Source of the DNA: Promethearchaeati archaeon
Lineage (GTDB): Archaea > Asgardarchaeota > Heimdallarchaeia > Heimdallarchaeales > Heimdallarchaeaceae
DNA length: 64,000 nucleotides
NCBI GenBank assembly: GCA_013166775.1
Contig: JABLTJ010000002.1
Span: 96,001-160,000, forward strand
Direction of reading: 5' to 3'
The position numbers were made by a program, and so were the translations under genes. Of this stretch, positions 19,191 to 23,802 are shown piece by piece (the stretch's first letter is position 1; each line of letters opens with the position of its first letter). The notes beneath the pieces were generated by a model that was given only the letters and a program-made list of their open reading frames with translations, did no database searches and was not told the origin of the DNA.

Positions 19191-22160
19191 TTAGTAGTAT
19201 GTTTCTTTCTTCCTTATGAACATCTTATAAACTTCTAGGGTAACCAAAGGTAGAGCTATAGCTACTAATAATATGATCCAGTCTACTACTCCTAATGCTA
19301 CAAATTCTACCCTAAAACCTAACAGATTATTCGCAAGGTTTTGTAGAGGAACAACGTAGATTAATAGAATATGAATAAGAGGAACTATCATTACTAGAAT
19401 AAATACTAACCATTTCCAATCTTCCTTGAAGGATTTGAAAACTGATTTATTCAACCTACGAAGACTAAAGACTACTAGACTTTCTGAAATAACCAATATT
19501 GTTACAAGCATCGTTCGTGCCTTTGCATGTGACCAGTTAATTGGAGAGGAAGCAGTTGCATTAATATCACCTAATAGAATCAAATCAATTCCTGATTGAT
19601 TGAACTCTGTTATAGGTATAATACCACGATATGTTAAGAAGTAAACCAGAAAACCAGCAAAGGCTAAAACTAAAGCTAGTATAACAAGAGCCCAAACATA
19701 TCTTTTATTGAATATTTCTTCATCATCTCTTGGGGGATATTCCATTATTTCCTTAGAAATACTATCGAAGATGAATGCTAAGGGGGGTATAAGATGAGCT
19801 GAAGAGAAAATATACACTCTCTGGAAATCATTCACGAAATGAAATCCTGGAATAAATGAAGTTGAGAAGTAGAGAATTGCTTCAGCAATATTAAGTGTAA
19901 TGTAGAAGAAGATCATAACCCTTATCCTGTCAAATAAACCTCGACCTTCTCTTATCCCTAGAACAGTGCTTGTAAAACTATCATCTGAGATGATGACATC
20001 AGAAGCTTGTTTAGCTACTTCAGTTCCTTCAATCCCCATGCATATTCCTACATCTGCATTAGTTAATGCAAGTGAATCATTTACTCCATCTCCGCACATT
20101 GCTATTATTTTGTTTATTTTTTGATATCTTTCTACAATTACTTGTTTATGTTGAGGTGATACACGAGCGAAAATTCTTGTATTGTAAAAATCAGTTTCTG
20201 TTAGATCTTTTATCTTATTTCCTTCTACTACTAGTTCTTCCCCTTGAATTAACCCAACTTCTTTTGCTATAGCTTTTCCAGTAAGTGGACTATCTCCTGT
20301 TATCATAATGGTTGTTACTCCTGCCCTCACACAGTCTTCTACAGCGCTTTTTACTCCGTATCTTGGTGGATCTAGCATACATACAAAACCATTGTAAATC
20401 ATTTCCTTTTCTGTTTCATCTCTATCATGGTCAAGCAACACATCTCTTGACATTGGTCGAACAGCTAAAGAAATAACTCTATATCCTTGTGATGCAAAAT
20501 CACTGACATACTTGTTGATTAAATTGATATCGTTTTCTTCTAGAGGTTTGTGATCAAAAGGACTCCCAATATGCGAACATAGAGGTAGAACTGTTTCTGT
20601 TGCCCCTTTACAGAACATGGAAAAACCTCTCTCATCTTGGAATGTTCTACTCATTCTCTTAAGAGTGGAATCAAAGTTGAATTCCATTACATATCCATAA
20701 TTTTCTCTTATCTCCTTCTCATTCAAACCTGATTTGTTGAACAGTGCAAGAAAGGCTCCATCTGTTGGATCTCCTGTAGTTTTCCATGAAATCTGATGAT
20801 GAGGTTCAAACACTTCTTCAACTATTAGATGAGCATTATTGTTCAACATTCCTCCAACTAGTAAAAACTCTAAAATTGAATCTTTCGCGAAGGGTTTTAT
20901 GTTATCAGGAATCATCATATCTTCAGGTATTTCAGTTGTATCTTTACCTATAGGAAAAATTGCACCTTGATCACTAAAACCTACACCTGATACGCCATAA
21001 AAATACTCAGTATCCCACACCTTTTGTATTGTCATCTGATTAGTGGTGATTGTTCCTGTTTTATCAGAACACAAAATTGAGCACCTCCCTAGAGTTTCAA
21101 CAGCTGATAGATTTCTGATAATGACTCTATCTTTTGCCATTGATAAGACTCCAGTTAGCAGAATTAAAGTTGTCAAGAGAGGGATACTGATTGGCATGAT
21201 AGCCATTGATGTTGTGATGGAATTAATTGCATCATCTATATAAAGCATATCTGTTCGGTTGTTAACAGCAAAATGGATTATAGCCTTATAAGTTAAAGAA
21301 ACAACTAAAAATACAACTACAGCAAAACCCAGCCATTTTGCTAGTCGATTCACTTTTGTTCGAATTGGTATTTCGTTGCTTCCTATTTCTTGTAGCTCTG
21401 TTGATAATCTGCCGATTTCTGTATAGAGACCTGTATTAACTACAATTGCATTTGCTCTTCCTGCTTCAATAAAAGTACCAGTATAGAGCATATTTACTCT
21501 CTGTGAGATTGGAGTATCTTCATCTATAGTTTTTGTAGGTTCATTTGACTTTTCAACTGCTACTGATTCTCCAGTTAGGGCTGATTCATTGACCAGACAA
21601 TTACTTGAATAGATAATTCGAGAATCAGATGGAACTCTATCTCCTTGATCGAGTTCGATTAAATCTCCTGGGACTAATACTGCTGCACCTAGAGTTTCAG
21701 GTACTCCATCTCTAATAACAGTTGAAGTTGGTGCTGAAAGCTTATGAAGAGCATCTAATTTGAATTGAGCCCTTATTTGTTGGAATATCGTAAAAACAAT
21801 ATTTACGCCTATAATGGCCATCCAGAAACCTATTTGGCTCCACACATCAGAAGAAGGGATTTTCATAACAAAAGTTTTAATCAAACCTAAAATCACCATC
21901 AGTATTGAGACGATTAAATAGATATTAATCAGCCAATTCAGCAATGGAGCTATGTAAACATCCCAGACTGAACCTTTGATTTTAGGAAGAACGTTTTCTC
22001 CGTAGTTTACTAATCTACTATCAGCTTCTTCTTTTTTCAAGCCAAACCTGACATCAGTGTCCAATTCATCACAAATCTCGTCTATTGTTCTATTATGAGG
22101 GCAGAGATTTTTTTGTGTGATCTTCTCTTCAGATTTGGTTTCTCTTTTCATTCTTGTCAA
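19191..22160 (-). CDS. P-type ATPase, P2A-like scaffold with atypical transport site
   Basis: TGES, CSDKTGT, KGA, DPPR, MITGD, MCGDGVND; about 10 TM helices; M4 reads MPISIP rather than PEGLP. Confidence 0.93.
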   Translation of the reverse strand: MTRMKRETKSEEKITQKNLCPHNRTIDEICDELDTDVRFGLKKEEADSRLVNYGENVLPKIKGSVWDVYIAPLLNWLINIYLIVSILMVILGLIKTFVMKIPSSDVWSQIGFWMAIIGVNIVFTIFQQIRAQFKLDALHKLSAPTSTVIRDGVPETLGAAVLVPGDLIELDQGDRVPSDSRIIYSSNCLVNESALTGESVAVEKSNEPTKTIDEDTPISQRVNMLYTGTFIEAGRANAIVVNTGLYTEIGRLSTELQEIGSNEIPIRTKVNRLAKWLGFAVVVFLVVSLTYKAIIHFAVNNRTDMLYIDDAINSITTSMAIMPISIPLLTTLILLTGVLSMAKDRVIIRNLSAVETLGRCSILCSDKTGTITTNQMTIQKVWDTEYFYGVSGVGFSDQGAIFPIGKDTTEIPEDMMIPDNIKPFAKDSILEFLLVGGMLNNNAHLIVEEVFEPHHQISWKTTGDPTDGAFLALFNKSGLNEKEIRENYGYVMEFNFDSTLKRMSRTFQDERGFSMFCKGATETVLPLCSHIGSPFDHKPLEENDINLINKYVSDFASQGYRVISLAVRPMSRDVLLDHDRDETEKEMIYNGFVCMLDPPRYGVKSAVEDCVRAGVTTIMITGDSPLTGKAIAKEVGLIQGEELVVEGNKIKDLTETDFYNTRIFARVSPQHKQVIVERYQKINKIIAMCGDGVNDSLALTNADVGICMGIEGTEVAKQASDVIISDDSFTSTVLGIREGRGLFDRIRVMIFFYITLNIAEAILYFSTSFIPGFHFVNDFQRVYIFSSAHLIPPLAFIFDSISKEIMEYPPRDDEEIFNKRYVWALVILALVLAFAGFLVYFLTYRGIIPITEFNQSGIDLILLGDINATASSPINWSHAKARTMLVTILVISESLVVFSLRRLNKSVFKSFKEDWKWLVFILVMIVPLIHILLIYVVPLQNLANNLLGFRVEFVALGVVDWIILLVAIALPLVTLEVYKMFIRKKETYY

Positions 22161-22337: not shown

Positions 22338-23132
22338 GTGAGTACGATGAGTCAACAACCCACAGGTCCTCCCGCTGGTCCTCCACGAGGTCCAATGTTT
22401 ATGAGAGACGAATATCAGAACTTAATTGATGAATTTACTAAAGATATAAAAACAGAGTTGAAAAATGAAGTACTAAGCTTACTCTTAGTAGGTAGTGTTG
22501 TTACACAAGAGCATATTGCAGGAGAATCAGATTGTGATTTTATTATTATTCTTAAAGATAAGGCATCTGGAGAAAAACTACAAGAATCAATGGAAAAAAT
22601 AAGCAAAATAGTATTCAAATATCTTGAAGATCCTTTGTACAGCTCCATTTTAGATGTTGAAGTTCTTGGAGATGATGAAATACCAAAGCAGGGAGAGGGT
22701 TCTGAATATCCATGGACTAAAATATTGGTTGCTCAAAGAGGAAAGGCACTAATTGGAGATAATCCTTTTGCTAAACTTAAGGTAGATGAAGGTCAGATAA
22801 AAGAAGCAGCAAAAGAGATGGCAAGAGTTTTTCTAGAACAAATGGAAGAAATTCCTACACTTGAAGAAGTAGATGATTATGATAAACTATATCTTACTGT
22901 CGAAGCAGTATTAGGCTGTGGGTGTGCTTTTCTCTACTATAATGGAGAAAAAGAGTTCTATAGAAGCTCAGCAATTATCTTGTTCGAAGATAAGTATCAA
23001 GATAAAATTAACATTGAACCTCTCCAAACAAGTCACAGATTAAGACTTGCTGCTAAATCTATTGAAACAAAAAATTTCATCCCTAACTCATTAGCTTTCT
23101 GTAAAGAAGTTAATAAAATACTTAATGCATAA
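22338..23132 (+). CDS. Pol-beta-superfamily nucleotidyltransferase domain protein with helical C-terminal domain
   Basis: LVGSV......ESDCDFIII motif and a later acidic LDVE. Confidence 0.75.
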   Translation: MSTMSQQPTGPPAGPPRGPMFMRDEYQNLIDEFTKDIKTELKNEVLSLLLVGSVVTQEHIAGESDCDFIIILKDKASGEKLQESMEKISKIVFKYLEDPLYSSILDVEVLGDDEIPKQGEGSEYPWTKILVAQRGKALIGDNPFAKLKVDEGQIKEAAKEMARVFLEQMEEIPTLEEVDDYDKLYLTVEAVLGCGCAFLYYNGEKEFYRSSAIILFEDKYQDKINIEPLQTSHRLRLAAKSIETKNFIPNSLAFCKEVNKILNA

Positions 23133-23145
23133 ACGAGGTTATTGA

Positions 23146-23802
23146 ATGTCATTAAAAACTAGTATTGATATTCTGGTTCAGAATATCGAGAGATCTTTAA
23201 TTTTAATGCTTGGTGAATCAGGTACTGCTAAAGAAGAAATAGCTTTTCGTTTCCTTGAAGATGGTTTAGCAAAAAAAGAGACAGTACTAGTGGTGCTATT
23301 TTCGCATTCTTCTTTTGATTATTTAGAGGAATTGAAAAAACGAGAGATTGCTGTTGATAAATATCTCAAAGATGGAACACTGAATTTCATTGATGCTATT
23401 TCTTTTAGATCTATTCCTAAAGAAAAACCACCGAATACAATTATATTAGAAAATGCAAGTGATTTACTTGCTCTTTCAATAAACCTGAATGACATTTCTC
23501 TGAAAACTACTAAGTTACGAATTATCTTTGATCAGCTATCGCTCATCGCATTATATAATTCTGCAATGCAAGTAGTTAATTTCTTACAATCTTTAGCTGC
23601 TAGAGTAAGACAAAGGAACCAAAGTGCTCTAATGCTACTAGACACAGGAGTAATCGATGATCAAACTGAAAAAACACTTCATACAATTGTTGATATGGTA
23701 GTAGAAACAAAGAGAACAGAAGAACCTTCTGGGGTTCAGCAACTTGTCAGAATCAAATTTGCAAAACATAAATATGAACCCAGATGGGTGCAAGTAGTAT
23801 AA
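23146..23802 (+). CDS. KaiC/RAD55-like RecA-fold ATPase with degenerate Walker A
   Basis: LMLGESGTAKE, RIIFDQLS, IVDMVVE; single RecA-like domain. Confidence 0.8.
   Translation: MSLKTSIDILVQNIERSLILMLGESGTAKEEIAFRFLEDGLAKKETVLVVLFSHSSFDYLEELKKREIAVDKYLKDGTLNFIDAISFRSIPKEKPPNTIILENASDLLALSINLNDISLKTTKLRIIFDQLSLIALYNSAMQVVNFLQSLAARVRQRNQSALMLLDTGVIDDQTEKTLHTIVDMVVETKRTEEPSGVQQLVRIKFAKHKYEPRWVQVV

What the first reader, a model, noticed from the sequence alone, without database searches (positions are those of the whole stretch)
19191..22160. P-type ATPase with a lipid-flippase-like PISI motif on a Ca-pump scaffold
Seen: M4 reads MPISIP (PISIP at 21194-21180). The M6-equivalent FQRVYIFSSAHLIPPLAF lacks the N/T/D ion ligands, while TGES, M5 N..E and M8 E are retained. 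Known: P2 pumps have PEGL (SERCA E309) and WVNLVTD; eukaryotic P4 flippases have PISL and DGET and are regarded as eukaryote-specific. Inference: the canonical cation site II is abolished. This could be a P2-to-P4 intermediate or a convergent lipid/organic-substrate transporter, located inside the signalling cluster.
Basis: partly seen in the sequence, partly recalled or inferred. Interest (0 to 1): 0.78.

Follow-up and report, generated by a model that had tools for sequence, protein, structure and literature searches.

The report
Asgard calcium-pump relative, rebuilt ion site
This gene encodes an intact ATP-driven membrane pump from a large, apparently uncharacterised, mostly Asgard-archaeal offshoot of the calcium-pump family; its calcium ligands are replaced around a Glu-His pair, so it probably moves a small ion other than calcium, and its flippase-like "PIS" motif is a local variant of the family's "PIN", not a link to eukaryotic lipid flippases.

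Summary
The ORF 19191-22160 (-) is a complete 10-helix P-type ATPase with every catalytic motif. M4 reads PISIP and M6 reads FSSAH where calcium pumps have PEGLP and NLVTD.

The flippase reading is not supported. The gene belongs to a well-separated clade (100% support in two trees) found in at least 134 of 201 sampled Asgard genomes, plus a few other archaea and Dehalogenimonas. The clade's M4 consensus is P-I-N-I-P.

Ser occurs only in the Heimdallarchaeaceae subclade. That subclade sits deep inside the PIN family, and its branches carry S, T, A or M at this position.

Across the family, calcium site II is erased (E309->I, N796->F/Y). A site-I-like set is kept (N757, E760, E893), with His replacing D800 in 99% of members.

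The P4-flippase HMM scores this protein lower (73 bits) than it scores the ordinary Ca-pump paralogs of the same genome (103-129). TGES is kept, no CDC50 was found, and the best structural matches are SPCA1 and SERCA.

The most likely function is a non-Ca2+ small-cation pump, with H+ favoured; the substrate is unproven. This scan has already found the same family many times on other DNA. Adjacency to the GTPase/receptor cluster is not conserved.

The parts
19191..22160 (-). CDS of the P-type ATPase (989 aa from TTG; probably 986 aa from the ATG at 22151)
   Evidence: The ORF is open. All five P2/P3-type Pfam domains hit. Column M4 is conserved in at least 90% of 70 homologues. The AF2 model has pLDDT 89 and pTM 0.85, with 10 TM helices.
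21564..21575 (-). A-domain dephosphorylation motif TGES (residues 196-199)
   Evidence: Direct translation. P4 flippases have DGET here (established knowledge).
21180..21194 (-). M4 unwound segment P323-I324-S325-I326-P327. I324 sits at the position of the Ca2+-ligand Glu of PEGL. S325 sits where the family has Asn.
21051..21065 (-). Phosphorylation motif DKTGT (D366)
20076..20093 (-). P-domain hinge motif GDGVND
19881..19892 (-). M5 N757-I-A-E760 (equivalents of SERCA N768 and E771). N is kept in 96% of the family; E is invariant in all 143 aligned members.
19794..19808 (-). M6 F785-S-S-A788-H789, replacing N-L-V-T-D. His is present in 99% of the family.
19482..19484 (-). M8 E893 (equivalent of SERCA E908). 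It is Glu in 76% of the family and Ile in one Hodarchaeales-type subclade.

Best explanation
This is a functional P-type ATPase with a P2A (calcium-pump) architecture. It belongs to an old, mostly Asgard-archaeal clade that split from canonical PEGLP/NLVTD pumps and rebuilt the transport site.

Calcium site II is erased. The M4 Glu is replaced by Ile, and the first M6 Asn by Phe/Tyr. Acidic residues at the M1/M2 entry are neutralised.

A single site-I-like locus remains. It is formed by M5 Asn757 and Glu760, M8 Glu893, a His (H789) at the position of the bridging M6 Asp, and in most members an Asn next to the M4 Ile.

The pump therefore most likely runs the normal E1/E2 phosphoenzyme cycle but carries a small cation other than Ca2+. 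The Glu-His pair plus the P-I-x-hydrophobic-P form of M4, which is also seen in P3A proton pumps, makes H+ the leading guess. A transition-metal or monovalent cation comes second.

In the Heimdallarchaeaceae subclade that holds this gene, the M4 Asn was replaced by Ser (Thr, Ala or Met on sister branches). That yields a PIS string that resembles the flippase PISL motif by coincidence of descent.

Shown here: gene integrity, clade membership, residue mapping, conservation, and the derived status of Ser. Inferred: that it transports, and what it transports.
For: Integrity:
- All catalytic motifs are present and the ORF is open.
- The AF2 model is confident, with 10 TM helices and unwound M4 and M6.

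P2A descent:
- The best NCBIfam models are PMR1, ENA and SERCA at about 390-410 bits, all below their cut-offs.
- The best solved relatives are LMCA1, SPCA1 and SERCA.
- The deepest family branch scores highest on the P2A models.

Distinct clade:
- In the exhaustive search, motifs switch sharply from PxNxP/His to IPEGLP/NLVTD at about 460 bits.
- The family is one side of a branch with 100% support in FastTree (239 rows) and IQ-TREE (62 rows).

Site conservation:
- I/V/F/W at the E309 position
- N 79% at the next position (98% outside the subclade)
- N757 96%
- E760 100%
- H789 99%
- E893 76%
- E->Q at positions 128 and 132, and D->Q/T at position 109

Paralogy: the same genome has two canonical PEGLP/NLVTD pumps, so this copy is a diverged function, not the cell's only Ca pump.

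Distribution:
- 149 of 201 Asgard genomes match at E<=1e-130, and at least 134 match at E<=1e-180.
- 71 of 85 high-quality genomes match.

Ser is derived: the PIS clade is nested under several branches with 97-100% support inside PIN sequences. It contains PISIP, PITIP, PIAIP and PIMIP.
Against: - No experiment or solved structure exists for any member that I could find. The substrate is pure inference.
- His is an unusual ligand for alkali cations. Nothing distinguishes H+ from a transition metal or something else.
- Gene neighbourhoods differ between lineages and give no functional hint.
- The subclade tolerates Ala or Met at position 325, so that position may not be a ligand at all.
Confidence: 0.6

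Rival explanations
1. Convergent large-substrate transporter. The clade moves a lipid or another organic or amphipathic molecule along the M1/M2/M4/M6 groove. The M4 Ile acts as a hydrophobic gate, as in P4 flippases, without the clade being related to them.
For: - The Ile sits exactly at the position of the flippase gate Ile, in the register P-I-S.
- Charges have been systematically lost along the cation path (E->Q at 128 and 132, D->Q/T at 109).
- The family has gained aromatic residues in M1, M2 and M6 (Y81, W113, F785).
- P4 and P5 pumps show that such substrate shifts do happen (PMC10654040).
Against: - TGES is kept, not DGET.
- The P4 HMM score is lower than for ordinary Ca pumps of the same genome.
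- No P4 structure appears among the top 50 Foldseek matches.
- No CDC50 was found in the genome (88.7% complete; the control was silent) or next to any homologue.
- An invariant Glu and a 99% His inside the membrane suit an ion or proton better than a lipid.
- The Ser is not conserved (S, T, A or M).
- P3A proton pumps also have Ile at this M4 position (established knowledge).
Confidence: 0.1
2. Still a divalent-cation (Ca2+ or Mn2+) pump, as annotated. It would use the single remodelled site: two Glu, Asn and His.
For: - Databases call the family a Ca2+-transporting ATPase.
- The Asgard transportome paper assigns Asgard proteins to the putative Ca2+-ATPase TC 3.A.3.2.21 (PMC7997004). I could not check which clade those proteins belong to.
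- N757, E760 and E893 correspond to SERCA site I ligands.
Against: - All characterised single-site Ca pumps (LMCA1, SPCA, PMCA) keep site II, which is the site erased here (established knowledge; motifs).
- D800, which bridges both sites, is His.
- Scores are far below every Ca-ATPase equivalog cut-off: 411 against 798, 393 against 703, and 369 against 507.
- The genome carries two canonical Ca-type pumps.
Confidence: 0.15
3. Evolutionary intermediate between P2 pumps and eukaryotic P4 flippases, inherited by eukaryotes from Asgard archaea.
For: The PIS string occurs in a Heimdall-group archaeon, and Asgard archaea are the closest archaeal relatives of eukaryotes.
Against: - PIS is derived within a PIN family and restricted to one family-level lineage.
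- The family is no closer to the P4 model than ordinary P2A pumps are.
- No eukaryotic member appeared among the named hits.
Confidence: 0.02
4. An ATPase that cycles without net transport, acting as a sensor or regulator, or a decaying paralog.
For: - The canonical ligands are lost.
- Position 325 is variable in the subclade.
Against: - Strong purifying conservation runs across hundreds of sequences and all Asgard classes, including invariant TM residues E760 and H789.
- The ORF is intact in every relative examined.
Confidence: 0.05

Closest known systems
P2A Ca2+-ATPases (Listeria LMCA1, PDB 6zhf/9euq; SPCA1/PMR1; SERCA1/2)
   Same: - Overall architecture is shared: Cation_ATPase_N, E1-E2, N and P domains, Cation_ATPase_C, and 10 TM helices.
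- TGES, DKTGT, DPPR, TGD and GDGVND are all present.
- The M5 N..E pair and the M8 Glu are kept.
- These are the best sequence and structure matches.
   Different: - M4 PEGLP becomes PISIP (PINIP in the family).
- M6 NLVTD becomes FSSAH.
- The acidic M1/M2 entry residues are neutralised.
- Scores are about half of every equivalog cut-off.
- The clade is separate, with 100% support.
P4 lipid flippases (Drs2, ATP8A1/2)
   Same: Ile at the position of the P2 Ca-ligand Glu, followed by Ser (P-I-S).
   Different: - TGES here, DGET in P4.
- No PhoLip_ATPase_N or _C domains.
- TIGR01652 scores 73 bits against a 431-bit cut-off, below the 103-129 bits of ordinary P2A paralogs.
- No CDC50 partner was found.
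- The Ser is not conserved in the clade, and the family residue is Asn.
P3A H+-ATPases (AHA2, Pma1)
   Same: - M4 has the form P-I-x-hydrophobic-P, with Ile instead of Glu.
- One central protonatable residue sits in M6 at the D800-equivalent position (Asp in P3A, His here). This rests on established knowledge of the P3A motifs.
   Different: - TIGR01647 scores only 302 bits against a 615-bit cut-off, lower than the P2 models.
- M5 keeps the P2-type N..E instead of the P3A Arg.
- Membership was not tested by phylogeny because no P3A references were available.

Membership tests
P-type ATPase superfamily (HAD-IC) | DKTGT phosphorylation site, the TGES-type A-domain motif, the TGD and GDGxND hinge motifs, and TIGR01494 above its cut-off | tested here: met
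   All motifs were found by direct translation. TIGR01494 scores 251.7 bits against a cut-off of 62.3.
P2A Ca2+-ATPase (SERCA / PMR1 / LMCA1 type) | M4 PEGL Glu together with M6 N-x-x-T/N-D (Ca2+ site II) | tested here: not met
   Ile occupies the Glu position. Phe, Ala and His occupy the N, T and D positions.
P2A Ca2+-ATPase (SERCA / PMR1 / LMCA1 type) | Score above the NCBIfam equivalog cut-offs | tested here: not met
   TIGR01522 scores 411 against 798.3. TIGR01116 scores 392.9 against 703.4. TIGR01517 scores 368.6 against 507.
P2-type architecture (broad sense) | Cation_ATPase_N and Cation_ATPase_C domains, 10 TM helices, and closest fold to P2 pumps | tested here: met
   The AF2 model has 10 TM helices. 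The Foldseek top 50 are all SPCA, SERCA, Na,K-ATPase or H,K-ATPase.
P4 lipid flippase | DGET in the A domain | tested here: not met
   The motif is TGES at residues 196-199. 119 of the 121 sequences scanned have TGES.
P4 lipid flippase | M4 PISL motif conserved in the family | tested here: not met
   P-I-S is present in this gene. However, the family consensus is P-I-N-I-P, and the local subclade varies between S, T, A and M.
P4 lipid flippase | Match to the P4 profile (TIGR01652, cut-off 431 bits) | tested here: not met
   The score is 72.7 bits. The canonical Ca-type paralogs of the same genome score 102.7 and 128.6.
P4 lipid flippase | CDC50/LEM3 beta subunit | tested here: inconclusive
   PF03381 was not found in the own genome, which is 88.7% complete, and the control genomes also gave nothing. 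None was found next to the 8 homologues examined. P4B flippases work without CDC50 (PMC10654040).
Asgard PxNxP/His clade (unnamed; noted repeatedly in this scan) | A hydrophobic residue at the E309 position, His at the D800 position, M5 N..E, and placement inside the clade in trees | tested here: met
   This gene departs only at the Asn position (Ser).

The most novel reading that the evidence does not exclude
The Asgard-wide PxNxP/His clade is a P-type pump for a substrate class not yet known on a P2 scaffold. One possibility is a Glu-His proton pump of the archaeal lineage that gave rise to eukaryotes. A bolder one is a convergent carrier of a lipid or organic molecule that uses the M4 Ile as a gate. 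Under either reading, the N->S/T/A/M change in Heimdallarchaeaceae would mark a further shift in specificity.
Probability: 0.12. Interest if true: 0.85.

Novelty: new variant of a known kind. Interest (0 to 1): 0.45.

Why it matters
P-type ATPase subfamilies are defined by their transport sites, and reviews list no prokaryotic subfamily with this site (PMC10654040). Here a clade present in most sampled Asgard genomes is annotated everywhere as a Ca2+-transporting ATPase. A transportome study used an Asgard-wide putative Ca2+-ATPase assignment as support for Ca2+ signalling in Asgard archaea (PMC7997004). If those proteins are this clade, that inference would need revisiting. I could not check whether the proteins in that study belong to this clade.

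Identifying the substrate would add a new specificity class to a textbook pump family. It would also bear on what ion economy the archaeal ancestor of eukaryotes had.

For this particular gene, the practical message is negative: the flippase-like PIS string is not evidence for a prokaryotic flippase.

Tried and rejected
- **Organism names for the family in GTDB genomes.** I used the search for related loci with an M4-to-DKTGT alignment. The generic DKTGT pattern swamped the scan, and only one true family locus (a Promethearchaeota genome) came back.
- **Literature.** Searches for PINIP, FUPA and Asgard P-type ATPases found no description of the clade.
- **Gene context as a clue to substrate.** No partner is conserved across lineages, so I dropped this line.
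- **Taxonomy of the deep branches.** The listing of cluster members returned mostly unnamed metagenome proteins.
- **TCDB entry 3.A.3.2.21 (A9BJX0), the entry to which the Asgard proteins are assigned at 39-47% identity.** I could not fetch the sequence, so whether it is itself a PxNxP/His member is unknown.
- **Phylogeny with P3A, P4 and P5 references.** No reference sequences were obtainable with the tools, so HMM scores with paralog controls were used instead.
- **3D distances in the AF2 model.** Coordinates are not exposed, so only secondary structure, pLDDT and fold matches were used.
- **Co-variation of N325S with A318S and A124T.** The two other, independent N->S sequences (P0132, P0182) keep Ala at position 318 (read), so no general coupling can be claimed.
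Full report
**What is there**

The window carries one open frame at 19191-22160 on the minus strand. It translates to 989 residues. The first codon is TTG. An ATG three codons further (22151) aligns with the start column conserved in at least 90% of 70 homologues, so it is the likelier start.

Pfam finds the full set of P2/P3-type domains: Cation_ATPase_N, E1-E2_ATPase, Cation_ATPase, Hydrolase and Cation_ATPase_C. All catalytic motifs are present, and I re-read them from the DNA: TGES, DKTGT, DPPR, TGD and GDGVND.

AlphaFold2 on a 70-sequence family alignment gives a confident model, with pLDDT 89 and pTM 0.85. It has ten membrane helices, and the characteristic unwinding of M4 (322-325) and M6 (789-791) is present. 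This is an intact pump, not a remnant.

**The observation**

The alignment to the solved Listeria Ca2+-ATPase puts PISIP on PEALS and FSSAH on NLVND. I also aligned 143 relatives with 96 canonical pumps, which fixes the register. SERCA numbers below are textbook values.

| This protein | Canonical position | SERCA |
|---|---|---|
| P323 | M4 Pro | P308 |
| I324 | Glu of PEGL | E309 |
| S325 | Gly of PEGL | G310 |
| N757 / E760 | M5 Asn / Glu | N768 / E771 |
| F785 / A788 / H789 | N / T / D of NLVTD | N796 / T799 / D800 |
| E893 | M8 Glu | E908 |

**What family it belongs to**

Two database searches give hundreds of full-length relatives at 42-91% identity and 830-2000 bits. By comparison, the best solved structure scores 366 bits and canonical pumps about 400 bits.

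In the exhaustive representative search, the motifs change abruptly at about 460 bits. Above that score every full-length protein reads P-[IVLFW]-N-[ILF]-P in M4 and has His in M6. Below it, the proteins read IPEGLP and W-x-NLVTD, apart from a few stragglers and some unrelated longer proteins.

The two groups fall on opposite sides of one branch. Support is 100% in a FastTree of 239 sequences and in an IQ-TREE of 62 sequences.

Named members come from these groups:
- Asgard lineages: Heimdall-, Hod-, Odin-, Thor-, Loki/Promethe-, Hel- and Atabeyarchaeia.
- Other archaea: single Bathyarchaeia and Nitrososphaeria MAGs.
- Bacteria: two Dehalogenimonas species.

In an even sample of 201 Asgard genomes, 149 have a match at E<=1e-130, and at least 134 have one at E<=1e-180. 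Among high-quality genomes, 71 of 85 match. Many genomes hold two copies in tandem.

The window's own genome also carries two canonical PEGLP/NLVTD pumps. This gene is therefore a diverged paralog, not the cell's sole Ca-type pump.

**The transport site**

Across the clade, these positions behave as follows:
- The E309 position is always hydrophobic (Ile 94%).
- The next residue is Asn: 79% overall, and 98% outside this gene's subclade.
- N757 is 96% conserved.
- E760 is invariant.
- The N796 position is Phe or Tyr.
- The D800 position is His in 99% of members.
- E893 is Glu in 76%, and Ile in one Hodarchaeales-type subclade.

Acidic residues at the M1/M2 mouth that canonical pumps conserve are neutral here: E->Q at 128 and 132, and D->Q/T at 109.

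In SERCA terms, site II is erased. That is the site kept by all single-site Ca pumps. A site-I-like locus survives with the bridging Asp turned into His.

This pattern is conserved over very deep divergence, which argues for a changed specificity rather than decay.

**The flippase question**

The Ile and Ser do align exactly with the P-I-S of flippase PISL. Every further test points away from P4:
- The Ser is local. The Heimdallarchaeaceae clade that contains this gene is nested under several strongly supported nodes inside PIN sequences. It holds PISIP, PITIP, PIAIP and PIMIP.
- The A-domain motif is TGES, not DGET.
- The P4 profile TIGR01652 gives 73 bits for this protein and 89-110 bits for other family members. 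It gives 103 and 129 bits for the two ordinary Ca-type paralogs of the same genome. The family is therefore, if anything, further from P4 than a generic P2A pump.
- The 50 best Foldseek matches are SPCA1, SERCA, Na,K-ATPase and H,K-ATPase, best in E2P-like states. No flippase is among them.
- No CDC50 homologue is found in the genome. The genome is 88.7% complete and the control was silent, so this point is weak. None lies next to any of eight homologues.

An Ile at this M4 position is also the rule in P3A proton pumps (P-I-A-M-P; established knowledge). It is therefore not diagnostic of lipid transport.

**Mechanism**

I commit to a normal phosphoenzyme cycle carrying a small cation other than Ca2+ at the single Asn/Glu/His(/Glu) site.

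H+ is the leading candidate. The site has a buried Glu-His pair, the M4 form matches P3A pumps, and charges along the path are lost. This is an inference. A transition metal is second, because His, Glu and Asn are typical ligands. A monovalent cation is third.

The subclade's N->S change comes with A318->S in M4 and A124->T in M2. It may tune this site, but two independent N->S sequences do not share those changes.

A convergent large substrate cannot be excluded. Family-specific aromatic gains in M1, M2 and M6 would fit such a substrate. It has no positive support.

**Context**

Family-wide there is no conserved neighbour.

Within Heimdallarchaeaceae, a divergently transcribed nucleotidyltransferase plus KaiC-like ATPase pair (window 22338-23802) stays next to the pump down to 58% identity.

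The Ras-like GTPase and giant receptor downstream are adjacent only in close relatives. There, two oxidoreductase genes lie in between. In the 58% relative the GTPase and receptor are absent. I see no evidence that the pump is part of the signalling cassette.

**Prior knowledge**

I found no paper describing this clade.

The Asgard transportome study assigns proteins from all five of its Asgard proteomes to a putative Ca2+-ATPase, TC 3.A.3.2.21 (A9BJX0), at 39-47% identity. It takes that as support for Ca2+ signalling. I could not verify which clade those accessions or A9BJX0 belong to.

This scan has already noted the same family many times on other genomes, including another PISIP member, and reached the same conclusions. 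My tests were done independently on this window, and they agree.

**Verdict**

- In kind, this is a new variant of a known type of system, and it is apparently uncharacterised.
- The gene itself is one more member, carrying a lineage-specific Ser.

Noticed in passing
window 22338-23802 (+): A Pol-beta-type nucleotidyltransferase (264 aa) and a KaiC-like ATPase (218 aa) are transcribed divergently from the pump. The pair stays next to the pump in Heimdallarchaeaceae relatives down to 58% identity (L013-L016), but not in other Asgard lineages.
   Followed up: partly
L013/L014 10031-13277; L015 10041-13296: In 71-72%-identical relatives, two oxidoreductase genes (Fer2_4/Pyr_redox_2 and DAO-type) lie between the pump and the Ras-like GTPase gene. 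In the window these two genes are absent, and the GTPase gene (18310-19086) follows the pump directly.
   Followed up: no
G000:C16:111908-114370 (L002 1123-3924) and G000:C75:167204-170008 (L003 1456-4353): The same genome carries two canonical P2A-type pumps with AVPEGLP and INLVTD/LNLLTD. They score 624-644 bits on the SERCA-type model. The genome also has two shorter (728-772 aa open frames) P-type ATPases, which were not examined further.
   Followed up: partly
other Asgard genomes, e.g. G147:C12:8360-14175, G040:C32:125900-131718, G025:C86:1223-7489: Many Asgard genomes hold two family copies in tandem. One genome of the window's own family (G086) has three copies on separate contigs.
   Followed up: no
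P0061-P0110 subclade (Hodarchaeales/Thor-labelled, 33 sequences): One large subclade has replaced the M8 Glu (E893 equivalent) by Ile while keeping N, E and H. The M8 carboxylate is therefore dispensable for part of the family.
   Followed up: no
P0132: This outlier family member reads MPVSIP in M4. It lacks both the M6 His (Gln instead) and the M8 Glu (Gln instead), so it may be a further change of site.
   Followed up: no
L008-L010 (Dehalogenimonas etheniformans, CP058566.2): A bacterial member (P0093) sits inside an Odin-type branch of the family, which suggests horizontal transfer. In Dehalogenimonas it lies divergent from a signal-peptide-peptidase-like gene and near a PAS histidine kinase with response regulators.
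   Followed up: no
PMC7997004 supplement: TC 3.A.3.2.21 is UniProt A9BJX0. Asgard proteins match it at 39-47% identity, within or just below the range seen inside the PxNxP/His clade (40-48%) and above the 33-36% seen to canonical pumps. The TCDB entry may therefore itself belong to this clade.
   Followed up: no
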